Source: Eledone cirrhosa
Lineage: Eukaryota
Direction of reading: 5' to 3'
DNA: 64,000 nt
Assembly (NCBI GenBank): GCA_964016885.1
Contig: OZ024741.1
Coordinates: 197,098,001 to 197,162,000 of the forward strand
Each line of letters opens with the position of its first letter. Within the stretch, counting starts at the first letter, position 1. Position numbers and translations under genes: made by a program. The notes beneath the pieces are model-generated. The model was not told the origin of the DNA and ran no database searches. It was given only the letters and a program-made list of their open reading frames with translations. This document shows, piece after piece, positions 370-63,786 of this stretch.

Positions 370-745
370 TAAGAATAAAGGAACAAAGAGTCAGTGTTGC
401 ATCATAACATATTTAATAACATATTACATATGCTTCACTGTTGATCAGTTCGAGGAACTATTTATTATTGATTGAACCTGGCTCTGGAATCGAAAGATCC
501 TCAGATATGCCTCGGTATGTAAGATGACGAGCTTATATACCGAGGCCTATCTGAGGATCTTTCGATCAATAATAGATCGTTCCTCGAGCTAATCGATAGT
601 GAAACATATGTAATATGTTATTAAATATGTTATGATGCAACACCGACCCTTTGTTCCTTTATTCTTATAGTATTATACTCTGCTCTGTGCGAGCATCGAG
701 TGCTCACCCAGCATACTGCCTATGGACACAATTTTCTTGCACCTA
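370..745 (+). mobile_element. Foldback element (Penelope-like pLTR remnant): inverted arms ~370-523 and ~532-667 plus ~75 nt unpaired tail
   Basis: TAAGAATAAAGGAACAAAGAGTCAGTGTTGCATC... is the reverse complement of ...GATGCAACACCGACCCTTTGTTCCTTTATTCTTA. It abuts (TA)n at ~347-364 and contains a hammerhead-like motif. Confidence 0.7.
546..617 (+). ncRNA. Hammerhead-like ribozyme (type I) with enlarged stem II
   Basis: CTGAGGA at 551-557, GAAAC-ATAT-GTA at 601-612 (palindromic loop 3). Stem I is CCTAT/ATATG here and a perfect CATAT/ATATG in the inverted arm. Confidence 0.55.
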
Positions 746-749
746 TGCA

Positions 750-895
750 CTAGCAAGGAATTAAGCATGCAGTTCGGTGTCCACCAGGGCTCTGTTCTTA
801 GCCCTCTCCTGTTCATTATAGTATTGCAGGCAATAACGAAGGAGTTTAACACCGAATGCACATGGAAACTCCTATATGCGGATGTTCTCACACTT
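750..895 (+). mobile_element. RTE LINE reverse-transcriptase fragment
   Basis: Translates to GVHQGSVLSPLLFIIVLQAITKEF...LLYADV, matching the longer RTE copies at 14.4 kb and 30.1 kb. Confidence 0.9.
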
Positions 896-913
896 ATTAA
901 AATAACAGATTAA

Positions 914-964
914 AGTTTAAGCAAAGAATCGCTGCTTTCACCCTTAACAGGATCTTCTGAAACT
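914..964 (-). ncRNA. Hammerhead variant (CAGAAGA core), inverted-arm copy
   Basis: Reverse complement reads AGTTT CAGAAGA TCCT gttaa GGGT GAAA GCA gcgattctt TGC TT AAACT. Confidence 0.55.
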
Positions 965-1398
965 AAAAAAAATCAATCTGTGAACGCAGAAGTAAAGATT
1001 TCGAAAAACGTTGCAACCGAAGGAAAACAGGAAGACGAAACTTTGGTTCATGAAGAAGTTCCCTGACAATGAACGGAAATTATTATTACTTTTATGATTT
1101 TAATAACCTCTGTCATTTTCGTTCAACTAATTTATTTACATTATTCTTAACTCCGAAGCCGAGAATCATTCGGTTTTCTAAATAGAATATTAGTCTAATG
1201 ACTCCATTTACACCATAAACGTGGTTTTGTCTTTGCGTGTATTTGTTCTCATTGCTCCACATAACGATGTATTATCTTCGCCTTTTTCCGTTCATTGCCA
1301 GGGAACATCTTCATGAACCAACATTACGTCTTCCTGTTTTCCTTCGGTTGCAACGTTTTTCGAAATATTTACTTTTGCGTTCACAGATTGATTTTTTT

Positions 1399-1449
1399 AG
1401 TTTCAGAAGATCCCGTTAAGGGTGAAAGCAGCGATTCTTTGCTTAAACT
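1399..1449 (+). ncRNA. Hammerhead variant (CAGAAGA core, U4A)
   Basis: Stem I AGTTT/AAACT, core CAGAAGA, stem II T.T plus CCC/GGG, GAAA, stem III AGCA/TGCT, triplet CUU. Confidence 0.6.
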
Positions 1450-1560
1450 TTAATCTGTTATTTTAATAAATATTTGCTCTAGGGTTCTTATATATTTGAT
1501 ATATATTTATCCTTATCGAACCCTCTTTGGATTTTAGTCTTCAAATTTATCATTATTATT

Positions 1561-1748
1561 ATGGATTGGCAGTATCGGTAGAGGGTCGGACGCCATGCTT
1601 TGACGCATAGAGTTACGGCCCTTGCCATTTTGAGTTCAATCACGCCGAGGTTAACTTTGCCTGTCATCCTTACGGGGTCGATAAAATAAAGTACCAGTAA
1701 TACACTGGGTAATTGCTGGCCTTGTGCCTAACGTAGAAACAATTATTA
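1561..1748 (+). mobile_element. tRNA-derived SINE family 1
   Basis: A-box-like TGGCAGTATCGG, B-box-like GAGTTCAA, body GCCTGTCATCCTTACGGGGTCGATAAAATAAAGTACCAG, ATT tail. Its 3' end is duplicated at ~1758-1793. Many copies in the window. Confidence 0.85.
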
Positions 1749-2764
1749 TATATATATATTGCTGGCCTTGTGCCTAAAATAGAAACAATTATTATATATA
1801 TATATATATACACACATACACACATCAAACCAAAGGCCTCAGGCTAGTGTGTTGGGGGCAGACATCTCGAACCAGCTTGTACATGATAAAAAACCCAACA
1901 TATGACCAACCAATGATAACCACATACATCAATTGAACATTCAGCCCAGCATCAACATCAGTAATACAGAGCAGAAGAGTTACCAGACTCAATGATACAT
2001 GAGAACACACACCAGATGTCATTGAATTCCATAAAAATGAACAACACCACCATGCTGTTGCTGACTTAACTCCAACACTTGACCTGAACCAACCAACCAA
2101 GGTCCTTAGTAGTATGGCCCCAATAAAGAAATCAGTAAGGGGATGGTTTCCATGACTTTTACAGACCCTCGAAAACAGGTAAAGTCAATGCAGTTATTTT
2201 GAGATTTTTGTAAGCTCAAGGACAAATATGATCAGGGAGGAATTTCAAGGAGTTTGCAGCAATGGAGAGAAAAGATTGAATACAATATTTAGTGCTAGGG
2301 AAGTGAGACATTAGAGGGACAATGAAAAAAGTAGAGATGAGGATGTTGAGTGAGCTTACAAGGTATTGCAGATTACTAGCTCAGAGGAACTGAGTTCATT
2401 GGAATAGCAATAGAAGGAATAAAGAGAAGAAATAACATACTTATGAGAAAGTGGTTGTAGTGTTTTGGTTTGTGAAATCTTTGTCAATCAAGTATATGTC
2501 TTTATTTATTTATTATTTTTAAATGCAACCTAGAAAGATTATGTGTGAGCATATGTGCTGAGCCACAGAACATTCCTAAGCAGTATATTGAAGTTTTTCT
2601 TATGTAGAACCTTAATCTATGGTTTGCAGGCTTGGTAACAGCTGACCTGGGATTAAAAGGTTATTCTAAATAATCAAGTTTAAAATATCTTTATATTGTC
2701 TAAACCCATGCTAGCGTGGAAGATAGACATTAAACGATGATGATGATTGTATATATAGATGATG

Positions 2765-2970
2765 ATTTCCAATTTAGGCATAAGTTCAACAATATGTAGG
2801 GAGGGGAAAGTTGATTATATCGACCCCAGTACTTGATTGGTACATTATTTTATTGACCCTGGAAGGATGACAGGTAAAGTTGACTTCAACAGGATCCAAA
2901 CGCAGAAATTCACAACTAAATACTGCAAAACATCTCATCTAGCTCTTCACAGATTTTGCCAATCCACTGC
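2765..2970 (-). mobile_element. SINE family 1, diverged copy
   Basis: TGGTACATTATTTTATTGACCCTGGAAGGATGACAGGTAAAGTTGAC is the reverse complement of the family body. Confidence 0.7.
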
Positions 2971-2994
2971 CCTTTATGTGTGTGTGTGTGTGTA

Positions 2995-3195
2995 TTTGCA
3001 AACTTCTGACAAGACTTGTGGCTGGAGTAAAGCACCAACCAGACAGAGGGTGACCTGGTGGAGGAACAGCACAGTGGATAGAGTCATTAAAGCGAAGAGA
3101 CAGGTATGGAAAGACTGGGAAAATAGGGGTAGCAAAGACCAATACCAGGTAACTAAGAGAAAAGCTAGACAACAGGTATACACAGCTCTGAGAGA
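2995..3195 (+). mobile_element. RTE LINE ORF2 fragment
   Basis: DKTCGWSKAPTRQRVTWWRN...KAKRQVWKDW aligns by eye to copies B and C. Confidence 0.85.
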
Positions 3196-3257
3196 GGTAT
3201 CCGTTATACCTGCAGCTACAACTTTGATTTATACCTATTATATATATATATATATAT

Positions 3258-3752
3258 ATAAGGAAAAAAAATGAAATGGAAAATGCAAAGGAGTCTTAAG
3301 AATATTTATTAGGTTCCGTTTCACAGTTCTTATGCTTTTCAAAAGTAGAATTGAGATGGAGGGTTTGTGGTTTTTCTTAGTGGATTGGCAGTATTGGTAG
3401 GGGGTCGGACACCATGCTTTTCAGCATAGACGTCCCTTTGCGATCTGAGTTCAAATCCCACCGAGGTTAACTTTGCCTTTCATCCTTACGGGGTCGATAA
3501 AATAAAGTACCAGTAATGCATGGTGTCCGACCCCCTACCGATACTGCCAATCCACTAAGAAAAACCACAAACCCTCCATCTCAATTCTACTTTTGAAAAG
3601 CATAAGAACTGCGAAACCGGTAAAGGAACCAAATAAATATTCTTAAGAAGACTCCAGTTGCATTTTCGATTTCATTTTTTTCCCTTATACTTTCACTCGT
3701 GTAAGACATCTCGTTTTTTTTTTTCATTTTGAAAAAAAAAACCTCATTTCCT
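3258..3752 (+). mobile_element. Foldback element (Penelope-like): arms ~3258-3418 and ~3518-3689 enclosing a SINE, ~63 nt tail, flanked by (TA)n
   Basis: Clear ~160-bp inverted repeat. SINE family 1 occupies ~3379-3520. (TA)n on both sides. Confidence 0.75.
3590..3625 (+). ncRNA. Minimal hammerhead with U3-A8 core (TTGAAAA)
   Basis: CTT TTGAAAA GCA taagaac TGC GAAAC CG GTA AAG, then AATAAA. Confidence 0.6.
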
Positions 3753-3894
3753 AATATATATATATATATATAACTGAAAATATTAGCAATTGTTCAAATA
3801 TGTAAGGTCAGTATGAGAGATCAGATATTATAAGGTTTAGTATTTAGTGATTGAGTTGTTAATTATATCTATTTCAGGTGTAGAGAGGTATGTT

Positions 3895-4200
3895 GCTCTG
3901 TCAGTTAATGAGTGTTCCAGTTATTTGAACAACAGAACAGTCAGCTTATGAAATTAATGTTCAAGTGGTTGAGCATTCCCCTGAATTGTGTACCTTTAAT
4001 GTAGTTCTCAAGCAGATTCAACATAGCATAGTGCATGACAAGGCTGGCTGGCATTTTAAATCACGGGTACAACAGCTAATTGGACTGAAGCAATGTGAAA
4101 TAAAGAGTCTTGTTCAAGGACACAATGCAGTCAGGGAATTAAACTCATGATCTTACATTTGCAAGCTGAACACCCTAACCTCTAAACCACACACCTTCAC
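3895..4200 (-). mobile_element. tRNA-derived SINE family 2 (CORE-like segment)
   Basis: Reverse complement has a tRNA-like head, TGTCCTTGAACAAGACTCTTTATTTCAC and TGCTCAACCACTTGAACATTAATTTC. Related copies lie near 24.55-24.8, 43.4-43.5, 57.4-57.6 and 59.46-59.69 kb. Confidence 0.7.
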
Positions 4201-5489
4201 TGTTCAGGTGTACAGATATATATTTGTTTATTTGTGATACAGCTATGTCTTTGTAAGGTAGTGTATTGGCATTGCTGTAAGAGCCATTGGATAGAATCAT
4301 CATCATCTTTGTGGTAATTATTCTGGTTCTCTGTTGGCCCTTTGAATTATAAGTATAGTCCATCTATCCAATTTCATTCACAAGGGATGGGTCAACCCAA
4401 GACTATGGTAAACGTCATTTGTCTAAGATGCCATGCAGTGGGATTGAATCCAGAATCTATCAACTAAAGTGTACTCAATCATTCGGTCATGTTGCACCCA
4501 CAGCCAACAACATGTAAATATGCTAAATGATTATTTTATACATTTTGATGATATTTCCTCTAAGATTATAAAATTTTGAGTTCCATAAAAACATGTACGT
4601 GTTACTGAACAATTACAACCACAAAAATATGTTACCTAGCTGAACATAGGAACCACATTAATGTCATGGTTAGGTAGTTAACATTATAGAATACAACCAG
4701 CTGTAAAAACAAATAAACGAAGTTGAAAAATTATGCTAACATAAGGTGATGATTCAAAGTAAGACATTATGAGAAAGTAAGATACTATTTTTTAAAAACT
4801 TTTCTCCAAAACAAACAGTGATATATAAGAAAAATATAAATTCTCACTAACTTACCACAGCATATCCTTAAAATAGAGCAACATTTAACAGCTGCTGAGA
4901 TATTTGGTTGATATTTAAATTTTAGATGAAAAGAAATTATTGGAGATAAAAGTAAATTCTTAACATTTCAGTTAATAGATTTGCCTATCTGATTATTACA
5001 GTATCAAGACAGACAGTGTACACAGATGTAGTGACAGGCCTGATTAGAACACACTGCTGGCTAGGAAAGGATATATAGACATGGGTCTGTCATCAAGGAG
5101 GAAGTGTGGGGAGCTGAATGATGAAAAATAATGATGATGATAGTGATGTTAATGAGGTATAGAGATGACTATTGTATTTGTATTGTAGGAATACAAATTA
5201 CAGTAACAAATACACTCCTTTCCTTTAGCTAATTTGAGTATTGAAAGAAGCTAAATATTGGGGATTGCAGCTGAAGTAAACTGGGTTCTGCCTGTTGGAG
5301 AGTATTCTCTCATATTGTTCAGGTGTATATAATTGTCATAGTCATGGTGGTGGTCTGTGTGTGTTTGATGATTTCTTTATATATATAATAAATTTAGGAA
5401 AATTAACAAAGAAAAGAATGAACGTAAACAAGGCAAAACTGAAAACAAACATTTTGAAGGTGAAATCTTAAAAAAATAAGGTCGTCAGC

Positions 5490-5689
5490 NNNNNNNNNNN
5501 NNNNNNNNNNNNNNNNNNNNNNNNNNNNNNNNNNNNNNNNNNNNNNNNNNNNNNNNNNNNNNNNNNNNNNNNNNNNNNNNNNNNNNNNNNNNNNNNNNNN
5601 NNNNNNNNNNNNNNNNNNNNNNNNNNNNNNNNNNNNNNNNNNNNNNNNNNNNNNNNNNNNNNNNNNNNNNNNNNNNNNNNNNNNNNNNN
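5490..5689. other. Assembly gap (200 N)
   Basis: Run of 200 N. Confidence 1.
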
Positions 5690-7995
5690 AAATAAATAAT
5701 ATCAAAATTTCATAAATTTGATATTATGTGAGATAATTATGTAAGATGAAGTCTTTATTGCGAAAATATAATAGTATATAGAGAATAATGCAAATGCTAA
5801 AGGGTTAAGGAGTACTTTGTGAAACATTTAACTCTGTAAAATTGAGGATTGGTGATAGCTGGAAGATGATGACACTTGATGTAATGAGAAAGAGCATCAG
5901 TCAACTCAGGTCTATTGTGTTTACTAGTGGGGATTGGTTTCACTCAGTCAAAATATCCTTGACATTGAAGAATAGTAACAGCAATTCCATCAAATTGGGT
6001 TTACAGTGGCTTTCATTGTTATTGAAATGGTGAGTTTGATAACCTTGCAAGGTTAAGAAGCAAATAACAAAAACAACTTGTATTTAAAACATATCCCATA
6101 TCAAGTTATAATTCTGATAAAATTTTGACTTAGCACAGCAAACTAACAAAGTTAATGTTACTTATTCATTAGATAACCAACTAATAATTCTTGAAACAGT
6201 ATTTTGCTGTTCTCTATCACCATAGCTAAATGACCTAAGCCAGAGAAACTATGATGCCTTTGCTAGATACATTATAGCCAAAAGTGTAACATAACCACCT
6301 TAATCAAATACACCTCTCCTTTAGCATTGTAGAGATACAAATCAAAACTGGCATGAAACCAGATTGTGTGTGTGTGTGGAAGAACATTTTCCAGTCATGC
6401 AGTACTTTGTCTGAATAGGTAGTGATTCTATTCTAGAAACCAATTATAAAAGAAATTTATGATTAAAATGAGAACAATTTATAGCAGGAAAAGGAAAATT
6501 TTTCTGGTCTTCTTTAGAGAAAGCTAATTCTGCATTTCTAATTGACTAAAAAGGTAGGTGCTTTTTCTCTACTTTTAATTAGGTACTCCATTTTTCTTAC
6601 TTTCTAATATTTCCTGTATTCTAGAAGCTATAATTAATGGAGAACACATTCTTTACTTTTAGTTTTTAACATTTCATGTCTGCAAATAAAATGTCAGTAA
6701 CTTAGTAATTATTGATGAAATATTTGCAATGGAACAGCTTCTGAAACAATACAGTTTCAAAATTAGTTTATCATGTTACTCTTCTTTTGTTTCAAAAATC
6801 CTTTTCAAAATCTTAGAATGATTTACTTTGTTTTAAAGGATATTGTAATAATATAATATTACAGTTAAAGATACTAAGTGACAAAAAATAGATCACAAAT
6901 TTTTGACCTACTTTATGGCAAAAGTAAACATTTTATATGGTTAGAATTAATTGCTATATGGTTATTTACACAATTGTCAGAACTAAAATGTTTTTATTCT
7001 GTTATACTTTTGCTGGTTTCAGTCACTTGATTGTGGCCATTCTGAAGCAAAGTCTTTGAAAGTTTTATTTGATTATATAGACTCAAGTTCATCACCTGGT
7101 ACTTATTCTATTGACATAGGAGGAAGATAAAAGATAAAGACAACCAGATATAAAAGGACATAACTGAGATGATTTAAAATATCACAAGGTGTTTTCATAT
7201 GACACCAATTTGTTTGTTTAACCATTCTAATATATGCACACATAACCGACTGATGGCTTTAGATAACACAAGACTATGATAGAGGACATATACCCAAAGT
7301 GTTCTACAGCAGGATCAAACTTAAAACCATGTTGTTGTGAAGCAAAATTATATAGAGAAATAATTCATTTGCTGCATGATTTCATATGCAATTTCAACTT
7401 TGTACATTTATTCAGGGAGAAATACATTTACATTTAAACATTCAACGTTTTTATTTGAAAAATTCCTCCTTATAAATCTCAAGTGTAGCAATATATCTCA
7501 AAGATAAATCCATTATAATTATTTGCAGAAACAGATTGCTTACATATATTTTGAATCACCGGTAATAAAACCTCAAATCTAGCTGAATAATTTATTCCAG
7601 ATGTTCTAAAGTAAGGTGCTGATAAGAATGACGTTTTTAAGTTCTTGTTTTTTTTTCTATTTCTCTGTATTTTACACAATAATGACTATGTTAAAACATT
7701 TATAAGTATATTATGAAAGTTGAATAATTAAGATACCGAACAAGGATCCTATGTACCAAACCTTTCTGTAAATATTGCTGTTGTTCCTTTCAACAAACAG
7801 AACACATTCACTTATTCTCAGTAAAACCGAACAAAGCTATCATTTTTGGATTATGTCCAAAACTAATTGATAGGCTTCAGAAAATTCATCTACTTGTAAA
7901 ATATCTGATTCAACTGTTATAACAGCTATACACATGGAACTATGCAAACATGATAGTGAGGAAAATGATATTAGAATATTTTAAATAACTGAACA

Positions 7996-9206
7996 TCCCA
8001 TAACTGGGAAATGGTCGTGCTCGGTGTGTAGGAAAGGCGTAGGTAGAAACTCCATTTTATGTCCTAAATGCAAAGTATGGGTGCATAAAAGATGTAGTGG
8101 GATCACAGGTAAGCTAACTAAGAACATAGATTTTACATGTGGCCGGTGCTCTGGTGCAATAAGTAGCAGCAAGTGCCCACAAACTACTAGCTCTTTCAAT
8201 TGCGCAGAGGGTTCTATAGAAATAGTGGACAGCTTCCGTTACCTGGGCGATAAAATCAGCAGTGGGGGAGGGTGCTCTGAAAGTACTGTAGCTAGAGTCA
8301 GAACTGGTTGGAAAAAGTTCAGAGAGCTTATACCACTATTAGCTGCTAAAGGGTTCTCACTAAAAATGAAAGGCAGGTTGTACGATGCCTGCATACGAAC
8401 AGCAATGCTGCATGGCAGTGAGACCTGGGCATTGTGTGCAGAGGATATACGCAGACTAGAGAGGAACGAAGCTTGCATGCTCCGCTGGATGTGTAACAGT
8501 AATATACGTGAACGGCAAAGCATAAACGAACTAAGGAATAAATTAGAGATAAGAGGGATCAGATGTTGTTTACTCGAGAGAAGGCTACGTTGGTATGGAC
8601 ACGTGATGCGCATGAAAGTCGATAGCTGTATAACAAAGTGCAGGGCAATAAAGATAGACGGTAGTCACGGAATAGGCAGACCTAGAAAAACCTGGGACGA
8701 GCTGATAAACTCCGACATCACACACTTACACCTCTCCAAGACAATGTCACTGGACCGAGACCTTTGGCGGTACTCAGTAACAGAGAAGACCCGCCTTACC
8801 TAAATATATAGTAAAACCTACTCCAGCCAGTAGGCATCTCTAACAAAATACACCCCGTCCCACCACCCCCACCCCCACCCGATCCACACCACCCCGTTCT
8901 ATGTAAAGTTATGTTGGTGCCGCGCCATCGAGGCCGAAACAAATGAGATCGTGTAGGTGTCACGACAAAAAACACACAGTCCACGCTGTAATGTGGCCGT
9001 GTAGGCAACACGGTAAAAACCTCCCAGACCCACACTGTAAATGTGGTTGGTGTTAGGAAGGGCATCCAACTGTAGAAAACCTGCCAGACAGTCCTATGCG
9101 AGCAAGACAATCACTCTTGCCTCAAGTGGGACTACCCCCGTCCAAACCCATGCAAGCGTGGAACACGGACGTTAAACGTTGATGATGATGATGATGATGA
9201 TGATGA
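7996..9206 (+). mobile_element. RTE-clade LINE copy A, 5'-truncated (ORF 8024-8803, 3' UTR, (GAT)n tail)
   Basis: PHD-like CxxC...CxxC..WVH.RC...CxxC, VDSFRYLGD, LHGSETW, RRLRWYGHVMR, GRPRKTW. (GAT)n tail at 9181-9206. Confidence 0.95.
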
Positions 9207-9392
9207 CATCAAGCTAGTCAAATGTATTGCATTAAATAACTGAAAACTATAGTAATAACCAATGTTTTTCAGTTGTACATTCTTTTTTTCTGTTCCATTA
9301 GAATATGAATATAATTCACCCACAATCATACCTAGATCAATTACTAAGGTATTAAGGTTGTTGAAGAACTCTTCTAGATAAGAAAGCTGACA

Positions 9393-9405
9393 ATACATAC
9401 ATACA

Positions 9406-9437
<32 letters not shown>

Positions 9438-9476
9438 CATACATACATACATACATACATACATACAGACAGACAG
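9393..9476. repeat. (TACA)n/(GACA)n microsatellite
   Basis: Direct reading. Confidence 0.95.
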
Positions 9477-9714
9477 AGGCCGGTCGTTGAAGAAATAGCA
9501 CCACATGTTCGGCCGGCTCCCTGTATCAGGAAAAGAAAATCTTTTTCGGAGAAATTATTGGATTCTTTCAAATCCTCAGGTTTTTTTCAGGAACTTTCAA
9601 TGTTTTTATGGGATTTTACCATCCGAAGAGCTCAAGCTATTATAACTGATAGTCCTCAGTGAAACATGTATAAATAAACCTGAATCAACTGAATATAGCC
9701 TCTGATCTTTTATT
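9477..9714 (+). mobile_element. Probable Penelope-like 3' fragment with degenerate hammerhead (9623-9670)
   Basis: CCGAAGA GCT...AGT GAAAC AT GTA, then AATAAA. Ends at (TA)n. Stem I is poor. Confidence 0.45.
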
Positions 9715-9729
9715 TATATATATATATAT

Positions 9730-10104
9730 ATATAATATGTTGAGAAGGTTACACACCAGAGAGAGATATATAGTGCGTTATCAATAATACAGGGAAAAAA
9801 CCACCAGTGTATGGAATCTATAACCTATGAAAGGCAGACTATAGACACGATAATTAAAAATATAAATTAAAGCGTAAATAAATACCTTTATAACTAAATA
9901 ACACACGTACAAATCCAAAGATATAGGTTATAGATTCCATACACTGGTGGTTTTTTCCCTGTATTATTGATAACGCACTATATATCTCTCTCTGGTGTGT
10001 TACCTTCTCAACATATTATATTTTAAAGGGCTCAGGATCTCTTCCCCTTTGAGCACATTATTTACAGGGAATAACGACGGCCTATGCCTCCGTTAATTTA
10101 TCGT
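9730..10104 (+). mobile_element. Foldback element: arms 9730-9828 and 9924-10021 plus ~83 nt tail, between (TA)n tracts
   Basis: Near-perfect ~98-bp inverted repeat with the same architecture as the elements at 0.4, 0.9 and 3.3 kb. No hammerhead seen. Confidence 0.7.
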
Positions 10105-10557
10105 TATATATATATATATACAGACCCTGACTCTTCTCTTTATGCAATTGGAGGTGACCTCTTCTCTCCTACTCATCACACTATACCTGCCATACATCCA
10201 TAAAATCATATCTTCATTCTCTCTCCTCCCCTCCTTTACATATACATGTTTAATCATGGTTGTTTTTGTAATTTATTTTTGTTTGCATTGTTATTGTTAT
10301 TGTTGCTTATCTTTAAGTTTTCTAATTTTTCACTGAGTGTAAAACATTAGCAAAGTTGATGAAAAACAAGGGAAGAAGATTATATTTATATCACAGCAAG
10401 CCTTGCAAATATTTCATTGTCTGAACAGTCTAATGCAAAGGGGGATATGCCGAAAAAGCCAATCCATTTTGCAGGGTTCATTCATATGGATGGTCACCTC
10501 TACCCCAATCAAACTAAGTAGGGAAGTTGTTCTGAGGCAAAGGACATTAGATATTTA

Positions 10558-10737
10558 CATCGGTAGAGGGTCAGACGCCATGCTTTTGCAGCAAAGAGTT
10601 ACGGCCTTTTATGGTCTGAGTTCAAAACCTGCCGAAGTTAACTTTGCCTGTCATCCTTACAGAGTCGATAAAATAAAGTACCAGTAATACACTAGAATAA
10701 TTGCTGGCCTTGTGCCAAAAGTAGAAACAATTATTAT
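10558..10737 (+). mobile_element. SINE family 1
   Basis: CGGTAGAGGGTCAGACGCC...GAGTTCAAA...GTCGATAAAATAAAGTACCAG...GTAGAAACAATTATT. Confidence 0.85.
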
Positions 10738-12175
10738 AGGTCTGAAAAAAAAAAAACCTAGGGAGAGCAGCTTTAAATTTGTCAGCTTACAATCCTCAAC
10801 CTGCCAGGTGATGAGGCCTAGGCTTGACAGAGAATTCATGTGGCTGCTACTTACAAATGAGAATTGTTTCTTTTTGAGACATATAATTTTTAAAAAATAT
10901 AAATGGAAAGGCTCCCATAGATATCTCCTATTTAAAAAGAAGCTATCTTAATTTAGAATACATAAATTTGACATGTCTAAAGGTGATGCCTTTTACCTCT
11001 CACCCAACCCATATATCTCTCATTCAAACTCTCACACCATCCACCCCTTGCCTTTTGCTTTCAATCTGAATTCATGTTAACATGAAAATCACAGTGAAAA
11101 CATGATTGCTGCTGCTGCTACAGATGATGATGAATAGTATTGTTGACACTACCTCCTTGAAGTGCAAGTAAAACATTAGATTTCTATCTCTGCCATTATA
11201 GTTTCACAGACTTAATTTCTACAACGTTTAATTGTATTCAGAATTAAGACACCATAGCCTTGGCAAGCTAACTGTTTACATATGACAGAGAATGTGTAGA
11301 AGCAGTCAGTTGACACAATACCTGAAGATAGCCCAATTGAAAGAGTTCTGAAGGAAGAGAGGTACACACAGCTGATTAGATAGAGAGATATGTAACTGTC
11401 AGAAGAGATTAAGAGAAGTCTGTAAACCTTAAAATAAAAACAAATCAACAAGATACAAGATGTTGAAAACACTAAACTTTCTTTAGGGATAATTATAAAA
11501 CAACATTATAAAAATGTTACTTCAACTAACTACCTTACTTTCAAATAAATAAAAAGTGAGTTTGCACATTGATACTAAATGATGTTGCTAAGAACTACAA
11601 TAAAAAAAAAAGGGGTTCAAATCATGTTATAAACCTGGCTTCAAATAAATTAAATATTCTATTTGTGAAAAGTTGTTTTATTTCCATATCCCAAGAAAAG
11701 GTAGGAAATCACCCTGACATTGAAGAACGTGTGGTGACCCGAGAGGAGGACATTAGTTGTATTGATGAAGGATACCACCTTATTTGATATACTAGGCAAT
11801 GAAATAATTTTATAATTTATTTATGCTTTCATACAATGATTTTAATTGATTGTAATTGTCCTTCAAAGCAACTTTATAGTAAAAAACAAAAATTAATATA
11901 AAGTTAAAAAAATGTACATCCATTTCTTATTAGAATTTTAAAATCATATCGTAGCTTTTTAACTGATTAAAATTATAAAAATATTAGCTACTTTGTTAGG
12001 ACTTAATCTTTAATGTGTTAACCTTATTTCTGAAAGTAGCTTAATCTGTATAGAAGGATTGGCAACAAAATTTCAAGTAGATTTTACTCAGTTATTAATT
12101 TGATGTCTGATACAGTCATAATGGGCTTTACAACATAATAAAAAATAACTACCAAAAGAGTAAAAGAATACTCAC

Positions 12176-12280: not shown

Positions 12281-12869
12281 CTGCAAAATAAAATGCAGAA
12301 ATATGTACAATATTATAAAAAAAGATAAAGCAATACACTGAAGATAACAGGATACATATAGGTCCTTATTTTTTTAAATTTAATCCTTAAGCTATTTCAA
12401 ATGAAAAACACTTCTCTTTAGTTGAATCAATGACCGACATCCTCTGTAGTGCTGGTTACAATACAAAATCATGCTAAAAAGGGTTGAGAAGGCTTTTCCA
12501 TTGTGTCAAGGGTACTTCACTCTTGGTGGAGACATAGAGGTGCCATCCTGACACTGTATGACAAGCCTTTTAAACTAGAAGCTCATCTGTCTCCAAGTTA
12601 AAACATAGCTGATTTCTTTCAGAGAGAGAGAGACAGAGAGAGGGTGGGTGTAAGTGAGGAAGAGAGATAGGGAGGAGAGGAGGAAAGAGAGAATATTGAC
12701 CCCAGTACTGTACTGGTATTTTATTTATTGACCTCAAAAGGATGAAAGAGCTGGAACAAATACTGAAGCATTTTTAATTTGACCAATTTCCTAGATAGAC
12801 TACATGAAGGTAAAGTCTTCAATGGCTTCACAGGTTATAGAACTTCTCTTCACCATCCATATTGTTTCC

Positions 12870-15800
12870 TATAGACAATATTGTGACGGCTATGATGAAA
12901 TCCATGGACGCTATGGGTTTGGTACTAGAAATGAGGAAGGCTCCAGAATCCTGGAATTCTGTGACGCAAATAACCTAACAATCTGTAACACTAACTTCAA
13001 AAAACGAGACAATCACCTGATCACCTACAGATCAGGGGAACATACCAGCCAGGTAGATTATATCCTTACCAGAAGACGTGACAGAGTGACTGTTGTAAAC
13101 ACTAAATCCCTCCCCCATGAAGAATGCACCTCCCAACATAGACTGATAATTAGCGACCTCATAGTCAGGACGAGACGGACTCAACAGCAGAAGTGGACTA
13201 TCCTCAAGAGAAAAATATGGAAGCTAAAGGACCCCACAGCCAGAAATAAATTTCAAAGCATATTACTTGATGCTTTCGACAGTAAGGAAGAGCATTTAGA
13301 GTCGGACAATATAGAGGGACAGTGGGAATTCCTGAAAGCAAACCTGCTGATGGCGGCAGACGAAGTCTGTGGCCGGAGCAGGCCTATAGGCAGGAGGAGA
13401 GTAACATGGTGGTGGAACAGTAAGGTGGAGGAGTCGATTAAGGCCAAACAGCAGGCTTGGAAAATATGGCGGGATGGGGGAAGTAGAGAAGACTATCAAG
13501 TGGCCAGGAGGGAAGCTAGGAGACAAGTGTACTTCGCAAGAAGGGAAGCAGAGGAAAGAAAGTTCAAGCATGTTCTACAACGCGAGGACCAAAAACGTGA
13601 GGTGTTCAGGATTGCTAGGCAATGTGTCAAGGAAAACCGTGATATTGTTGGGGAGAAGTGTGTACTAAATGATGATGGCGTACTCGCCATCACTGACGCT
13701 GATAAGAAGGTCGCTTGGAAGTGTCACTACGAGAGGCTACTAAATGAGGAGAATAAATGGGAGAAGGATAGTCTCCCCCAGATCGATCCAATAGAGGGAC
13801 CAGCAGTGTTAGTTGAAGGTAGTATAATAAGTAAGGCAATCAAAGATATGAAGACGGGTAAGGCGGCTGGGCCTTCGGAAATAGTTGCTGAGATGCTGAA
13901 GGCCTCTAGAACGGTGGGACACACCATGGTCACCCGGATAGTAAACCAAGTCATACAGAATGGGGTTGTTCCGAAGGACTGGCGTAGCAGCATCATCATT
14001 AACTGTTACAAGGGTAAAGGAGACGCCCTAGATAGGAGTAACTATAGAGGGATTAAATTAATCGACCAGGTCATGAAGGTCACGGAAAAAGTAATAGTGC
14101 AACTAATCAGAGAGAGAATCGATCTAGATGAAATGCAGTTCAGGTTTGTGTCAGGCAAAAGTACCACAGACGCTATTTTCATTGTACGACAACTACAGGA
14201 GAAGTACCTAACTAAAAGTAAACCCCTATACTTAGCCTTTGTCGACTTGGAGAAAGCCTTTGACAGAGTCCCCCGTTCCATTATCTGGTGGGCTCTTAGA
14301 AAACTAGGTGTTGACGAATGGCTTGTGAGAGCTATACAAGCCATGTATAAAGAAACAGTGAGCAAGGTTAGAATTAACAACGAATATAGTGAAGAGTTTA
14401 GCGTAAAAGTTGGTGTCCATCAGGGCTCTGTTCTTAGCCCCCTACTATTCATTATTGCTCTTCAGGCTATAACAGAGGAGTTCAAGACCGGCTGCCCATG
14501 GGAACTCCTATACGCAGATGACCTAACGCTCATAGCTGAATCAATGGCCGAGCTAGAGAAGAAATTCCAAACATGGAAGCACGGCCTAGAATCAAAAGGC
14601 CTTAAAATTAACATGGCTAAGACTAAAGTTCTAGTTTGTAGGAAAGAAAATAAGGTGCCGGTCCCTTCCAGGAAATGGCCATGCTCAGTGTGTAGGAAAG
14701 GCGTAGGTAGAAACTCCATTCTATGTCCCAAATGCAAAGTATGGGTGCATGTAGTGGGATCACAGGTAAGCTAACTAAGAACACAGATTTTACATGTGGC
14801 CGGTGCTCTGGTGCAATAAGTAGCAGCAAGTGCCCACAAAATACTAGCTCTTTCAACTGCGCAGAGGGTTCTATAGAAATAGTGGACAGCTTCCGTTACC
14901 TGGGTGACAAAATCAGCAGTGGGGGAGGGTGCTCCGAAAGTACAGTAGCTAGAGTCAGAACTGGATGGAAAAAGTTCAGAGAGCTTATACCACTAAAAAT
15001 GAAAGGCAGGTTGTATGATGCCTGCATACGAACAGCAATGTTGCATGGCAGTGAGACCTGGGCATTGTGTGCAGAGGATATACGCAGACTAGAGAGGAAC
15101 GAAGCTTGCATGCTCCGCTGGATGTGTAATAGTAATATACGCGAACGGCAAAGCATAAACGAACTAAGGAAAAAGTTAGAAATAAGAGGGATCAGATGTT
15201 GTTTACTCGAGAGAAGGCTACGTTGGTATGGTCACGTGATGCGCATGAAAGACGACAGGACAATAAAGATAGACGGTAGCCACGGAGTAGGCAGACCCAG
15301 AAAAACCTGGGACGAGCTGATAAATTCCGACCTCACACACTTACACCTCTCCAAGACAATGTCACTGGACCAAGAGCTTTGGCGGTACTCAGTAATAAAG
15401 ACCCGCGTTACCTAAATACAAAGTAAAACCTACTACAGTCAGTAGGCATCTCTAACAAAATACACCCCCCCGTCCCACCACCCCCACCCCATCCACACCG
15501 CCCCTTTCAATGTAAAGTTATGTTGGTGCCACAAAATCCAGACCGAAACAAATGAGATCGTGTAGGTGTCACGACAAAAAAAACACACAGTCCACGCTGT
15601 AATGTGACCGTGTAGGCAACACGGTAAAAACCTCCCAGTCCCACACTGTAAATGTGGTTGGTGTTAGGAAGGGCATCCAGCTGTAGAAAACCTGCCAGAC
15701 AGTCCACGCTGTAATGTGGCCGTGTAGGCAACACGGTAAAAACCTCCCAGCCCCACACTGTAAATGTGGTTGGTGTTAGGAAGGGCATCCAACTGTAGAA

Positions 15801-28794: not shown

Positions 28795-31439
28795 ACACAA
28801 AGTAAACACAAAAGCCTTCCCTAGTGAGGAATGTACATCCCAACATAGCTTAGTTGTCAGCAACCTCACAGTCAGAACTAGATGAACCTGGAAACAGAGG
28901 CCAACCTGGAGAAGAAAGATCTGGAAGCTGAAAGACCCCTCAACCAGTAACAGATTTAAAGATATTTTACTCAACGCCTACGACAGTAAAGAAGAACAGA
29001 TAGAGACATTCAATGTAGAAGAGAACTGGGAGTTACTAAAAAATAACTTACTAGAGGCGACAGATGAGGTTTGTGGCTGGAGTAAGACCTCAAGCAGGAG
29101 GAGATGACTTGGTGGTGGAACAATAAGGTAGATGAGGCAGTTAAGGCCAAGAGACAGGCATGGAAAGAATGGAAGAACGGGAGGAGCAGGGTACATTACA
29201 TAGAGACCAAGAGGGAAGCTAGGCGACAAGTATACTTAGCTAGGAGGGAAGCAGAGGATAGAAAATTCAAGCACGTTTTGCAACGTGAGGACCAGAAACA
29301 GGAGGTGTTCAAGATTGCGAGACAGTGTGTCAGAGAGAGTTGTGATGTCATTGGAGAGAAGTGTATCCGGAATGATAAAGGTGAGCTTGCCCTCACAAGT
29401 GCTGAGAAGAAAGATGCATGGAAGAGTCATTATGATAGATTACTAAATGAGGAGAATGCATGGGAAGAAGAGACCCTACCCCAAGTAGACCCTATAGAGG
29501 GGCCAGCAGTACAAGTCAGCAGCAACGTAGTAAGTAAGGCAATCAAAGATATGAAGATGGGGAAGGCAACAGGTCCATCGGGTATAGCTGCCGAGATGCT
29601 GAAGGCATCTGGGTTTGTAGGTCACACTATAACCACACGTATTGTTAACCAGGTAATACTAGAAGGTGTCATACCAAAAGGTTGGTGCAGTAGCATCATT
29701 GTCAACTGCTACAAAGGTAAAGGTGATGCACTAGATAGAGGAAACTATAGAGGTATAAAGCTGATGGACCAGGTCATGAAAGTAACAGAAAGAGTTATAG
29801 CACAGTTGATTAGGGACCGGGTGAAAATAGACGAGATGCAATTTGGGTTTGTACAAGGAAGAGGCACCACTGATGCCCTCTTCCTTGTGAGGCAGTTACA
29901 GGAAAAGTACCTAGCTAAAAGTAAGCCACTCTACTTGGCATTTGTCGACCTTGAGAAAGCCTTTGACAGAGTTCCAAGTGCTGTAATCTGGTGGGCTCTT
30001 AGAAAACTAGGAGTAGATGAATGGCTTGTGAAAGCGGTACAAGCCATGTATAGGGGAGCAGTCAGCAAAGTTAGGATTAGCAATGAGTATAGCGAGGAAT
30101 TTAGCGTACAGGTTGGGGTCCACCAGGGCTCTGTTCTTAGCCCCCTCCTGTTCATCATAGTCCTGCAGGCAATAACGGAGGAGTTTAAGACCGGATGCCT
30201 ATGGGAACTCCTGTATGCTGATGACCTCGCACTTATAGCTGAATCTATGGTAGAACTAGAGAAGAAATTCCAAACTTGGAAGCAGGGACTAGAAAGAAAG
30301 GGTCTCAAAGTAGACGAGAAAACAGAACCCAGATCCCCTCAGGGAAATGGCCTTGCTCAGTATGTAGGAAAGGTGTAGGTAGGAACTCCATTCTTTGCCC
30401 CAAATGCAAAGAATGGGTACACAAGAGATGTAGCGGGATCTCAGGAAGCTTAATTAAGAATGTAGGCTTCACATACAGCAGCTGTGCTGGGACAGCAAGC
30501 AGCAAACAGCCACAGGAAACAAGTACCACCAATCTCTGGGAGGGCTCTGTAGAAACAGTAGACAGCTTCTGCTACCTAGGTGACCGAATTAGCAGCGGAG
30601 GTGGGTGTTCAAAAAGTACAATAACTAGGGTAAGAACGGGATGGAATAAGTTGAGGGAATTACTGCAACTGCTAGCTGCAAAAGGCTTCTCCCTCAAAAT
30701 GAAAGGCAGACTGTATGCTGCGTGTATCCGAACAGCAATGTTACATGGTAGTGAGACCTGGGTGTTGAAGATGGAAGACTTACATAGATTAGAAAGAAAC
30801 GAAGCCTGCATGCTCCGATGGATGTGTAACAGTAATATACGTGAACGACAAAGCATAAATGAATTGAGAGAGAGACTGAGCATAAGAGGAATCAAATGCT
30901 GTGTGCAGGAGAGGCGGTTGCGCTGGTATGGGCATGTGGTGCGTATGAAGGATGACAGCTGCATAAAAAGGTGCAGAGCACTAGAAGTCAATGGAAACCG
31001 CGGAGTGGGGAGACCCAAGATGACCTGGGATGAGGTGATAAAAGCCGACCTTACCCAATTACACCTCTCAAAGGCAATGAAACACGACCGTGACCTCTGG
31101 CGTCACTCAGTAATACAGAGTACCGACCTCCCATGGGTACAAGCTGAAGCATATAGACAATATGCCCCCACCACAAGGTGGTCGTGGAGGTGCCATGGCA
31201 AAAAAGCACCCAGCCCACACTGTAAAGTGGACGTGTAGGCTCCACGAAAAAGCACCTAGCACTCACTGTAAATGAGGTTGGTGTTAGGAAGGGCATCCAG
31301 CTGTAGAAATCAAGCCAAATTAGTTCCTGTATGAGCAAGGCATGGTCAGCCGACCAGACACTGCCCACAACAGGACAACCCATCTAACCCATGCTAGCGT
31401 GGAAGAACAGACGTAAAACGGTGATGATGATGATGATGA
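28795..31439 (+). mobile_element. RTE-clade LINE copy C (second subfamily), 5'-truncated and frameshifted
   Basis: ORFs 29104-30378 (RT with YADD) and 30276-31238 (PHD-like finger, C-terminus). A deletion near 30310 causes the frameshift. (GAT)n tail. Confidence 0.97.
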
Positions 31440-34846: not shown

Positions 34847-35270
34847 CTAGAGTTATTACAAGCGTTGCCTTAAAAAAATATTAAACTAGACCTTAAAAAT
34901 GCGCAAGCTCAAAAGAGCCACAGAATGTTATAATAAACCTTCAAAAGTGTGGGACTATAGTTGTTGCTCAAAAATATTATAATCATTATTGGCATTCTGT
35001 AGCATCCTTTATAAAAATATCACAATAAATACATCTAGAGTGTACGATAGATAATGATTACAATATTTTTGAGCAACAACTCTAGTCCCACATTTTTCAG
35101 GTCTAGTTATCTTTCTGTCTTAGAAATTGCTAGATTTCCCACTTTATATCGGTTTGACTATGAAAAAGTATGTACAAAAAATCTCCTCAGATGACTTTTT
35201 CCCATTTCATGTATTCATCTCATGTAAATTCATCTGAGATGCTAGTCTTTTAGATTCACTCAGTTATTTC
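34847..35270 (-). mobile_element. Probable non-autonomous Helitron 3' part with internal inverted repeat (~34944-34988 and ~35051-35096)
   Basis: Reverse complement ends GGCAACGCTTGTAATAACTCTAGT. 35181-35248 resembles 34021-34089. Confidence 0.45.
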
Positions 35271-43036: not shown

Positions 43037-43600
43037 CTCATCTGGTTTGCTGGAGTTATCGAATTGTGAATTGTTTTTCAGTATTTGATTACTAATCTCC
43101 AAGAAAAAGAATCTAATAGACAGAAATAAACACAGTAACGAAACCAACATCAGTCTATCATTCAAAATAGCTTTAACAGTCAGCCTGGCCCTCAATACAC
43201 ATTCAATGTATACCAGTTAAACCATCAATCAATTTTCAGTGGTCAGCCAGCATGACCAAATGGTTAAGAAGTTTGCTTCAATCCCACTGTGTGGCATTTT
43301 GAGCAAGATTTATTTACTATAGTCTTGGATCAACCTATACCTTGTGAATGAAACTGTTTGGAGGCCCATCAAATGGACTGTATCTGTAATTCAAAGGAGT
43401 AGCCTTATCACACACAGTGTGAATCTGCCTAAAAATTATGCTATGGATGCATGTGTCTGTAGAATGCTCAGTCACTTATATGTTAATTTCATGAACAGGC
43501 TATTCCTATGATTGAAAAATGAGAACACTCATAAAAAAGCAATGAAGATCCATTCCATATCAGCCAGTCCAGCCATTCATCCACTTTCAATGTGTGCCCA

Positions 43601-46600
43601 CCTGTCATTCCATCCAATAACTATGTACCTTTCCCTGTCGTTCCATCCAATAACAAGGTACCGTTCCCTATCGTTCCATCCAATAACAAGGTACCGTTCC
43701 CTGTCGTTCCATCCAATAACAAGGTACCTTCCCCTGTCGTTCCATCCAATAACAATGTACCTTCCCCTATCATTCCATCCAATAACAATGTACCTTCCCC
43801 TGTCATTCCATCCAATAACAATGTACCTTTCCCTGTCATTTCATCCAATAACAATGTACCTTTCCCTGTCATTCCACCCAATAACAATGTACCTTTCCCT
43901 GTCATTCCATCCAATAATAATGTACCTTCCCCTGTCATTCCATCCAATAACAATGTACCTTTCCCTGTCATTTCATTCCAATAACAATGTACCTATCCCT
44001 GTCATTTCATCCAATAACAATGTACCTTTCCCTGTCATTCCAGCCAATAACAATGTACCTTTCCCTGTCATTCCATCCAATAACAATGTACCTTTCCCTG
44101 TAGTTCCATCCAATAATAATATACCTTTCCCTGTCATTCCATCCAATAACAATGTACCTTTCCCTGTCATTCCATCCAATAACAATGTACCTTTCCCTGT
44201 CATTCCATCCAATAACAATGTACCTTTCCCTGTCATTCCATCCAATAACAATGTACCTTTCCCTGTCATTCCATCCAATAACAATGTACCTTCCCTTGTC
44301 ATTCCATCCAATAACAACGTACCTTTCGCTGTCATTCCACCCAATAACAATGTATCCTCACCTGTCATTCCATCCAATAACAATGTACCTTCCCCTGTCA
44401 TTCCATCCAATAATAATGTACCTTCCCCTGTCATTCCATCCAATAATAATGTACCTTCCTCTGTCATTCCATCCAATAACAATGTACCTTCCCCTGTCAT
44501 TCCATCCAATAATAATATTCCTTTCCCTGTCATTCCATCCAATACCAATGTACCTTCCCCTGTCATTCCATCCAATAACAATGTACCTTCCCCTGTCATT
44601 CCATCCAATAATAATGTACTTTCCCCTGTCATTCCATCCAATAATAATATACCTTTCCCTGTCATTCCATCCAATAACAATGTACCTTTCCCTGTCATTC
44701 CATCCAATAATAATGTACCTTCCCTTGTCATTCCATCCAATAACAATGTACCTTTCCCTGTCATTCCATCCAATAACAATGTACCTTTCCCTGTCATTCC
44801 ATCCAATAACAATGTACCTTCCCCTGTCATTCCATCCAATAACAATGTACCTTCCCCTATCGTTCCATCCAATAACAATGTACCTTACCCTGTCATTCCA
44901 TCCAATAACAATGTACCTTCCCCTGTCATTCCATCCAATAACAATGTACCATCACCTATCGTTCCATCCAATAACAATGTACCTTCCCCCGTCATTCCAT
45001 CCAATAACAATGTACCTTCCCCTATCGTTCCATCCAATAACAATGTACCTTACCCTGTCATTCCATCCAATAACAATGTACCTTACCCTGTCATTCCATC
45101 CAATAACAATGTACCTTCCCCTGTCATTCCATCCAATAACAATGTACCTTCCCCTATCGTTCCATCCAATAACAATGTACCTTCCCCTGTCATTCCATCC
45201 AATAACAATGTACCTTCCCCTATCGTTCCATCCAATAACAACGTACCTTACCCTGTCATTCCATCCAATAACAATGTACCTTACCCTGTCATTTCATCCA
45301 ATAACAAGGTACCTTCCCCTATCGTTCCATCCAATAATAATGTACCTTCACCTGTCATTCCATCCAATAACAATGTACCTTTCCCTGTCATTCCATCCAA
45401 TAACAATGTACCTTTCCCTGTCATTCCATCCAATAACAATGTACCTTCCCTTGTCATTCCATCCAATAACGTACCTTTCCCTGTCATTCCACCCAATAAC
45501 AATGTACCTTCCTCTGTCATTCCAACCAATAATAATGTACCTTCCCCTGTCATTCCATCCAATAATAATGTACCTTCCCCTGTCATTCCATCCAATAACA
45601 ATGTACCTTCCCCTGTCATTCCATCCAATAATAATGTACCTTCCCCTGTCATTCCATCCAATAATAATATACCTTTCCCTGTCATTCCATCCAATAACAA
45701 TGTACCTTTCCCTGTCATTCCATCCAATAATAATGTACCTTCCCCTGTCATTCTATCCAATAACAATGTACCTTTCCCTGTCATTCCATCCAATAACAAT
45801 GTACCTTCCCCTGTCATTCCATCCAATAACAATGTACCTTCCCCTGTCATTCCATCCAATAACAATGTACCTTTCCCTGTCATTCGATCCAATAACAATG
45901 TACCTTTCCCTGTCATTCCATCCAATAACAATGTACCTCCCCTGTCATTCCATCCAATAACAATGTACCTTCCCTATCGTTCCATCCAATAACAATGTAC
46001 CTTCCCCTATCGTTCCATCCAATAACAATGTATCTTACCCTGTCATTCCATCCAATAACAATGTACCTTCCCCTGTCATTCCATCCAATAACAATGTACC
46101 TTCCCCTGTCATTCCATCCAATAACAATGTACCATCCCCTATCGTTCCATCCAATAACAATGTACCTTCCCCTGTCATTCCATCCAATAACAATGTACCT
46201 TCCCCTATCGTTCCATCCAATAACAACGTACCTTACCCTGTCATTCCATCCAATAACAATGTACCTTCCCCACTCATTCCATCCAATAACAATGTACCTT
46301 CCCCTATCGTTCCATCCAATAACAATGTACCTTACCCTGTCATTCCATCCAATAACAATGTACCGTCCCCTGTCGTTCCATCCAATAACAATGTACCTTC
46401 CCCTATCGTTCCATCCAATAACAATGTACCTTCCCCTGTCATTCCATCCAATAACAAGGTACCTTCCCCTATCGTTCCATCCAATAATAATGTACCTTCA
46501 CCTGTCATTCCATCCAATAATAATGTACCTTTCCCTGTCATTCCATCCAATAACAAGGTACCTTCCCCTATTGTTCCATCCTGTAATAATGTACCTTCCC

Positions 46601-63709: not shown

Positions 63710-63786
63710 GGATAATTTCTGAATCCCATAATTAACTATAAGAAAACAAACTCAAATTCCTTATTGTCAAGTTGGAAACCACTAAA

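What the first reader, a model, noticed from the sequence alone, without database searches (positions are those of the whole stretch)
370..10104. Four unrelated foldback elements share one architecture: inverted arm, spacer, sense arm, 60-85 nt unpaired tail, mostly at (TA)n
Seen: inverted repeats at 370-667, 894-1469, 3258-3689 and 9730-10021 have no obvious similarity to each other. In each, the right arm runs ~60-85 nt beyond the point where the left arm begins. Three abut (TA)n and three contain hammerhead folds. Known: Penelope-like elements (PLEs) make inverted 5'-truncated pLTRs with a 3' extension, carry hammerheads, and some clades favour microsatellites. Inference: these are ORF-less products of several PLE families, or non-autonomous retrozyme-like RNAs. 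The similar tail length may record the priming geometry. A MITE would have symmetric ends, and these do not.
Basis: partly seen in the sequence, partly recalled or inferred. Interest (0 to 1): 0.75.

Follow-up and report, generated by a model that had tools for sequence, protein, structure and literature searches.

The report
Two-primer footprints of Penelope-like retroelements
The four hairpin-plus-tail repeats are cut-short insertions of four very abundant repeat families, three being the ends of Penelope-like jumping genes and one a protein-free repeat with a ribozyme motif, and each was likely made when the element's enzyme copied one RNA twice from two start points 64-91 bases apart; the layout is already known.

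Summary
Each foldback belongs to a family with thousands of candidate copies, and the tails are family sequence. A, B and C trace upstream to GIY-YIG or RT plus GIY-YIG frames: A and B Hydra-type (A in only 2 loci), C Neptune-type. D is a young, ORF-less 541-nt tandem unit with a hammerhead motif; no coding partner was found. Copies end at two sites, S (arm start) and T (tail end), 64-91 nt apart. Of 89 inverted pairs with both ends at S or T, 87 are S+T, 2 S+S, 0 T+T; 21 further pairs were unclassifiable. D arms share variants far above random pairing, and often neither arm contains the other. Best model: one RNA is primed twice, once on each strand of a cut (TA)n, and the cDNAs are joined at their ends. 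The 'spacer' is just the longer arm's excess (a SINE piece in C). Inverted copy, tail and two internal start sites are published; I did not find the pairing rule in print. The scan noted this before on other DNA of this genome. No bench or RNA evidence.

The parts
370..523 (-). Family A tail-less arm, starting at site S; (TA)n at about 346-363 to its left
   Evidence: 91% to family reference on the minus strand
526..750 (+). Family A sense copy: 3' end of a Hydra-type PLE, with an 18-nt deletion in this copy, ending at T
   Evidence: link to GIY-YIG frame in L316 and L318
544..619 (+). Family A type I hammerhead-like motif (core CUGAGGA at 551, GAAA at 601, predicted cut after 612); read by eye, stem II damaged in this copy
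   Evidence: 86 distinct copies conserve the motif
668..750 (+). Family A tail (S to T; 87 nt in the reference copy)
894..1079 (-). Family B tail-less arm from site S
1080..1560 (+).
   Evidence: colinear in other copies; ORF link
1399..1449 (+). Family B hammerhead-like motif with variant core CAGAAGA (U4 to A) at 1404, GAAA at 1424, predicted cut after 1444; read by eye
   Evidence: conserved in at least 90% of 84 distinct copies
1470..1560 (+). Family B tail (85-91 nt); in tandem copies it lies about 50 nt before the ORF start codon
   Evidence: L322
3258..3375 (-). Family C tail-less arm from site S; (TA)n at about 3239-3260
3376..3558 (.). SINE-like piece inside C: about 135 nt in sense, then its first ~40 nt inverted; both arms carry the same SINE-to-C junction, which occurs nowhere else in the assembly at up to 1 mismatch
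   Evidence: (families D2, D7); the label SINE rests on recalled tRNA A/B-box motifs
3559..3757 (+). Family C sense copy: 3' end of a Neptune-type PLE, with tail 3690-3753 (64 nt), then (TA)n
3587..3628 (+). Family C minimal hammerhead-like motif with U3-A8 core (UUGAAAA at 3593, GAAA at 3613, predicted cut after 3622); read by eye
   Evidence: U3-A8 variant described in PMC4209133
9732..9924 (-).
9923..10109 (+). Family D sense piece, unit 445-541 plus tail (unit 1-90, window 10020-10109); (TA)n on both sides; 2-nt overlap at the inversion junction

Best explanation
The four foldbacks are insertions of four high-copy repeat families, three traced to Penelope-like element reading frames and one an ORF-less 541-nt tandem unit, and each was likely made by a PLE enzyme priming one RNA twice. 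Inferred steps: the GIY-YIG nuclease cuts both strands of a (TA)n run; one DNA end primes cDNA at internal site T and the other at site S, 64-91 nt upstream, each at a short TA-matching patch; both cDNAs run upstream across the uncut or re-ligated hammerhead and stop early; their 3' ends join through 0-5 nt of overlap and are filled in. The result is arm, excess of the longer arm, arm, tail. D would be carried in trans, from a circular or multimeric RNA.
For: Shown. (1) Two fixed ends in each family, mostly followed by (TA)n (hits not de-duplicated). (2) ORF links: C, 17 of 30 loci found with its upstream UTR carry the ORF C-terminus (two are one place), and a 938-aa frame has RVT_1 (28 bits, just under cut-off) and GIY-YIG; B, 21 of 25 ORF-selected loci carry the B end downstream (my reading); A, 2 loci. 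(3) Pairing: of 110 inverted pairs, 87 S+T, 2 S+S, 0 T+T, 21 with a non-standard end; among 55 pairs not found with a foldback query, 42, 2, 0 and 11 (42 of 44, P 6e-11 against 0.5). (4) In 34 D pairs the arms share 73 non-majority bases in 8509 sites (8.6/kb against 1.6/kb in 2000 re-pairings, maximum 5.4), 14 of them seen only in that insertion; site 385 agrees in 21 of 22 pairs. (5) Neither arm contains the other in 12 of 34 D pairs (my reading) and in 9 of 21 A, 5 of 9 B and 1 of 7 C pairs with clean junctions. (6) Junction overlap 0-5 nt in 28 of 34 D pairs. Literature: a purified PLE cuts and extends both strands, starts RT at two internal sites that bound the tail, and is modelled as a dimer (PMC11167929).
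Against: No RNA or biochemical data for these families. Shared variants could also come from gene conversion between arms or from two RNAs of one source locus. The within-insertion similarity is weaker in A, B and C (0.924 vs 0.890, 0.970 vs 0.959, 0.957 vs 0.938; own arm best in 9 of 22, 2 of 8, 6 of 13). In 14 of 34 D pairs the tail arm is the longer one and snap-back fits equally well; in 8 more the S arm spans a whole unit and is ambiguous. In vitro, the anole enzyme showed no strand difference in start site and no homology to the target. No source locus for the SINE-C chimera was found. No coding partner for D was found. Samples are top-scoring hits plus incidental copies, not random. Hammerhead folds were read by eye: Rfam listed none and RNAfold's minimum-energy folds do not give them.
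Confidence: 0.62

Rival explanations
1. PLE products made by self-priming or snap-back: a single cDNA, or an antisense template, folds back on itself and is copied to give the second arm, as proposed for rotifer PLEs.
For: Explains shared private variants, the identical SINE-C junction in both arms of window C with no source locus found, near spacer-less hairpins such as A, and the 14 of 34 D pairs with a longer tail arm. Proposed in PMC3846280 (passages).
Against: It needs one arm to contain the other. That fails in 27 of 71 assessed pairs, including window D. In six pairs the tail-side piece starts inside the tail and there is no inverted overlap at all (L022, L244, L196, L026, L093, L049). 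Many solo copies end at S with no tail and no partner, so S is a start site on its own.
Confidence: 0.13
2. Two primers, two RNAs: each half of a dimeric enzyme carries its own RNA from the same source transcript or multimer, or the arms were homogenised later by gene conversion.
For: Fits the ORF links, fixed ends, arms that do not contain each other and, with a shared source or conversion, the shared variants. D occurs as multimers of up to four whole units in a row (L358), so one transcript can offer two sets of sites.
Against: Gives no simple reason why T+T never occurs (0 of 89) and S+S is rare (2 of 89). An ORF-less RNA recruited in trans from a pool of about 2000 candidate loci would seldom pair with its own source.
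Confidence: 0.22
3. MITEs or foldback DNA transposons with terminal inverted repeats that target (TA)n, or assembly chimeras.
For: Short, ORF-less, high-copy hairpins in (TA)n look like this (recalled resemblance to rice Micron-type MITEs).
Against: Unit length varies 111-3225 nt, ends are asymmetric, many copies are solos, three families continue into PLE frames, and D forms head-to-tail tandems. Arms differ by 1-9% and end at the same family positions in many loci, which chimeric reads would not do.
Confidence: 0.02

Closest known systems
Insertion unit of endonuclease-bearing PLEs (PMC3846280 passages; PMC8557442 passages)
   Same: Inverted 5'-truncated copy joined head-to-head, tail at one end only, partial tandems, hammerhead in the pseudo-LTR, (TA)n targets.
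   Different: Tails here are 64-91 nt against the 30-40 bp stated there; those passages call the tail optional and give no pairing count; PMC3846280 favours self-priming.
Hydra clade of PLEs, including Hydra-1_Obim (PMC8557442 section 11; supplement rows)
   Same: Family B: RW(R/K) and DKT motifs, CxCX5C linker, C-terminal GIY-YIG, CxxC..E..N..CxH, (TA)n target, hammerhead with a U before GAA as in listed Hydra rows. Family A: the same type of nuclease frame.
   Different: Distinct families by eye (no direct alignment to Hydra-1_Obim was run); long TG-rich 3' UTRs; B's hammerhead core reads CAGAAGA; A's link rests on 2 decayed loci.
Neptune-type PLEs (PMC8557442 passages)
   Same: Family C relatives: single 844-938-aa frame, GLKF and DKG motifs, RT, CX4CXXC linker, C-terminal GIY-YIG.
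   Different: Neptune versus Nematis was not tested by a tree; the longest intact frames belong to a sister subfamily 82-83% identical to the window copy, closer copies (87-94%) are broken or truncated.
Poseidon element of the green anole studied in vitro (PMC11167929, main text)
   Same: Two internal RT start sites downstream of the hammerhead bound the tail; both strands are extended; cleavage by the ribozyme is not needed.
   Different: There the start sites had no homology to the target and no strand difference was seen; here 7 of 7 assessable sites sit on a run of 3 or more alternating T/A (background 13-24% of positions) and the two sites are used one per side.
Non-LTR retrozymes (PMC7229834 passages; bioRxiv 10.64898/2026.07.22.740005 part 1 of 5 and passages)
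   Same: Family D: ORF-less, AT-rich head-to-tail unit with a type I hammerhead motif in each unit.
   Different: Unit 541 nt rather than about 300-390; dispersed copies show the PLE arm-plus-tail footprint, which the passages read do not discuss; circular RNA not shown here.
L1 twin priming (recalled, no call)
   Same: Both target strands prime on one RNA and give an inversion joined by microhomology.
   Different: L1 products do not duplicate the same RNA stretch; here both cDNAs cover the same stretch, which needs the RNA to be copied twice.

Membership tests
EN+ Penelope-like elements (A, B, C) | RT and GIY-YIG nuclease in one ORF upstream of the repeat end | tested here: met
   C. B: RT and nuclease motifs in pieces, (no Pfam hit). 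A: nuclease frame in 2 loci, RT piece in 1.
EN+ Penelope-like elements (A, B, C) | Variable 5' truncation, partial tandems, inverted copy, one-sided tail | tested here: met
   tandems L181, L322; no clear tandem seen for A
EN+ Penelope-like elements (A, B, C) | Type I hammerhead motif in the pseudo-LTR | tested here: inconclusive
   Conserved motifs read by eye; variant cores in B and C; compensatory stems in C relatives; Rfam no match; activity untested
EN+ Penelope-like elements (A, B, C) | Target-site duplication | not testable with these tools
   Insertions lie in (TA)n, where a duplication cannot be told
Hydra clade (B) | RWK-like and DKT motifs, CxCX5C linker, CxxC and CxH around E and N, C-terminal nuclease | tested here: met
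   RLRWR and DKTGNLY; CNCRNRVDC and CDIC..E..N..CKH; definition
Hydra clade (A) | Same motifs | tested here: inconclusive
   Decayed nuclease frames with a similar linker and C-terminal motifs in L316 and L318; N-terminal motifs not recovered
Hydra clade (A, B) | RT phylogeny places it in the clade | not tested
   No tree with reference proteins was built
Neptune clade (C) | C-terminal nuclease with CX2-5CxxC linker and CCHH motif, DKG motif | tested here: met
   L181 translation; these features are shared with Nematis
Neptune clade (C) | RT phylogeny separating Neptune from Nematis | not tested
   No tree
Non-LTR retrozymes (D) | ORF-less tandem unit with a type I hammerhead in each unit | tested here: met
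   541-nt unit, no long frame; arrays L006, L357, L358; canonical CUGAUGA..GAAA core; sister family at 72-75% keeps it
Non-LTR retrozymes (D) | Expressed, self-cleaving, circular RNA | not testable with these tools
   No RNA run was listed; copies longer than one unit fit a circle or a multimer
MITE / TIR DNA transposon | Fixed length with symmetric terminal inverted repeats | tested here: not met

The most novel reading that the evidence does not exclude
PLE inverted repeats are made by a dimeric enzyme that copies one RNA molecule twice, from two structurally set internal start sites, one per target strand, with short TA pairing; any RNA that carries the roughly 150-270-nt module from hammerhead to tail, including ORF-less hammerhead circles (family D) and read-through chimeras (the SINE piece in C), is inserted the same way. 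This would replace the self-priming model and supply a mechanistic, not only phylogenetic, link between animal retrozymes and PLEs.
Probability: 0.55. Interest if true: 0.6.

Novelty: new member of a known kind. Interest (0 to 1): 0.38.

Why it matters
As elements these are ordinary for this genome. Their value is as thousands of natural records of a poorly understood reaction: how PLEs make tandem and inverted repeats is named as an open question in PMC8557442. The S+T pairing rule and the shared variants give sharp predictions for the in vitro system of PMC11167929. Family D is young (98-99% identical copies), short and ORF-less, so it is a ready test substrate for trans-mobilisation of a hammerhead RNA. 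For annotation, such hairpins should be filed as PLE ends, not MITEs.

Tried and rejected
Rfam scans of the window and of 10 loci listed only low-complexity miRNA-like noise and a weak tRNA-like hit, no hammerhead (167 lower rows not shown). No PLE protein match in the window itself. Naiad origin: four short motifs of the tails were absent from the supplement of PMC8557442, and the linked frames have C-terminal nucleases. Coding partner for D: none in 50 GIY-YIG loci, 61 D loci (four carried unrelated ORF pieces not joined to D), 13 ORF 3' flanks or 20 loci of the older sister family (two carried ORF pieces apart from the unit). Source locus for the SINE-C junction: only the two window arms matched; at about 5% divergence one mismatch may be too strict. 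Unconstrained folding did not recover the hammerhead folds. L333, L273 and L317 have Hydra-type frames near an A end but were not counted as A links (different UTR or an intervening (TA)n). Literature searches found no paper stating a one-site-per-side rule; supplementary figures of PMC11167929 and the bioRxiv supplements were not seen and may bear on this.
Full report
Observation. The window is G000:C2:197098001-197162000 of a 3.0-Gb animal assembly. That it is an octopod is my recall from its repeats plus other notes of the scan; I did not test it. The four inverted repeats A (370-667), B (894-1469), C (3258-3689) and D (9730-10021) are present as described and unrelated to each other. Each is one copy of a large family: first-look candidates 3301, 5894, 5634 and 2268, of which 40 were scored each. 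Matches run through the tails, so tails are element sequence. The spacer is the excess of the longer arm (B, D), an artefact of an 18-nt deletion (A) or a SINE piece (C).

Coding links. PF01541 (GIY-YIG) gave 10,597 candidates in the genome, 150 scored. C: its upstream UTR, used as query, brought 30 loci, 17 of which carry the C-terminus of a PLE frame (L127 and L136 are one place). Relatives 82-83% identical over the C end have 844- and 938-aa frames with RVT_1 (E 2e-6, just under the curated cut-off) and GIY-YIG, a CX4CXXC linker and DKG: Neptune-type, Nematis not excluded. B: walking upstream through a TG-rich UTR reached a frame with RLRWR, DKT, CxCX5C and CxxC..E..N..CxH, the definition of the Hydra clade in PMC8557442 (section 11 read whole; its supplement lists Hydra-1_Obim with (TA)n preference); 21 of 25 ORF-selected loci show the B end downstream (my reading). 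A: two loci, L316 and L318, share a decayed Hydra-type nuclease frame upstream of the A end; L316 has the full layout (TA)n, inverted arm, ORF end, UTR, hammerhead, tail, (TA)n. D: a 541-nt unit without a long frame, in head-to-tail arrays of up to four whole units, top copies 98-100% identical. An older sister family, 72-75% identical, has the same circularly permuted unit and the same two ends. No coding partner was found.

Two ends. Against family references, 3' ends pile up at S and T: A 73 and 61 of 154 hits, B 71 and 75 of 186, C 36 and 80 of 213 (at least 66 of these are an internal repeat), D 52 and 55 of 190 (73 are internal tandem joints); 200 of 232 S ends and 213 of 271 T ends are followed by (TA)3 or more (hits not de-duplicated). 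Minor ends exist inside the tails of A (+48) and B (+43). In tandem copies the tail runs on into the next unit, about 20 nt (C) and 50 nt (B) before the start codon. Seven of seven sites whose continuation is known sit on 3 or more alternating T/A bases, against 13-24% of positions (read by eye).

Hammerheads. Conserved type I motifs, read by eye in 86, 84, 62 and 25 distinct copies: A CUGAGGA with a long stem II, B CAGAAGA, C UUGAAAA (the U3-A8 variant of PMC4209133, passages) with compensatory stems in sister subfamilies, D canonical. The predicted cuts lie 56, 23, 67 and 176 nt upstream of S, and arms cross them freely, so the template was uncut or re-ligated. Rfam and plain folding did not detect them; activity is untested.

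Pairing and template. Outward-pointing ends within 3.3-4 kb and without a (TA)7 run between them were paired: 110 pairs after one duplicate was dropped, 87 S+T, 2 S+S (both B), 0 T+T, 21 with a non-standard end; leaving out the window and the loci found with a foldback query, 42, 2, 0 and 11 of 55. In 34 D pairs the arms share 73 non-majority bases over 8509 sites (8.6/kb; 1.6/kb in 2000 re-pairings, maximum 5.4) and differ at 12.5/kb against 26.8; 14 shared bases in 11 insertions occur in no other arm. At site 385, 21 of 22 pairs agree (11 GG, 10 AA); at 339, 15 of 15 without a gap. The same trend in A, B and C is weaker. The S arm reaches further upstream yet lacks all or part of the tail in 12 of 34 D pairs and 15 of 37 clean A-C pairs, which copying one arm from the other cannot give. 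Against this: 14 D pairs fit snap-back, 8 are ambiguous, and gene conversion is not excluded. In window C both arms carry one SINE-C junction found nowhere else; a read-through RNA copied twice explains it, but so does DNA-level copying.

Mechanism. Shown: family membership, two ends, pairing, shared variants, small junction overlaps. Inferred: double nick in (TA)n, one primer at T and one at S on the same RNA, early stops, end joining. About 0.95 that these are products of PLE machinery; 0.62 for the one-RNA version.

Comparison. The inverted copy and one-sided 30-40-bp tail are described in PMC8557442 (passages) and PMC3846280 (passages), the latter proposing self-priming. PMC11167929 (parts 1-2 of 4 and passages) shows two internal start sites bounding the tail, extension of both strands and a predicted dimer, but its text uses 'inverted' only for a blocking base. 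PMC4209133 proposes circular templates. PMC7229834 (passages) and bioRxiv 10.64898/2026.07.22.740005 (part 1 of 5 and passages) define animal retrozymes and tie them to PLEs by phylogeny. Five searches found no statement of the pairing rule; supplements of PMC11167929 and of the preprint were not seen. Eight earlier notes of this scan on other DNA of the same genome reach similar readings; they are not independent support.

Verdict. Real, correctly read, and mostly known. New members of known kinds, with longer tails than reported and a countable footprint that favours twin priming over self-priming. Interest 0.38.

Noticed in passing
window 9479-9712: A fifth PLE-like 3' end with a hammerhead-like motif (variant core) that stops at the same (TA)n as D; one other copy at 75% in L140.
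   Followed up: partly
window 34920-35118: Another diverged foldback (about 74-85% between arms) with no match among the loci fetched.
   Followed up: partly
family C, about 135 nt upstream of S (window 3559): 5' ends pile up here: 28 of 36 segments in the C-query loci and 4 of 8 incidental copies. It may be the RNA start or a strong RT stop.
   Followed up: partly
window 1404-1410 (family B): Hammerhead core reads CAGAAGA (U4 to A) in at least 90% of 84 copies; activity unknown.
   Followed up: partly
L018:1501-2110: A D arm is joined directly to the tail end of another hammerhead-bearing family (also seen in L203, L250), either a nested insertion or a mixed-family event.
   Followed up: no
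window 1562-1800, 2825-2906, 10547-10745: Copies of an abundant SINE-like repeat with tRNA-type boxes (label recalled), often next to (TA)n.
   Followed up: no
window 7985-8803, 12795-15415, 29086-31238, 62172-63751: Broken LINE-like reverse transcriptase frames (RTE-like by recall).
   Followed up: no
window about 43500-49400: Long tandem array with a period near 27 nt and strong GC skew, open in several frames.
   Followed up: no
L276-L283 (C12, about 60-kb spacing): One A copy with its flank repeated at least eight times in a segmental tandem array.
   Followed up: no
L183, L184, L187, L191: At least four further PLE families with long frames (three Neptune-type, one more distant) in this genome.
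   Followed up: no
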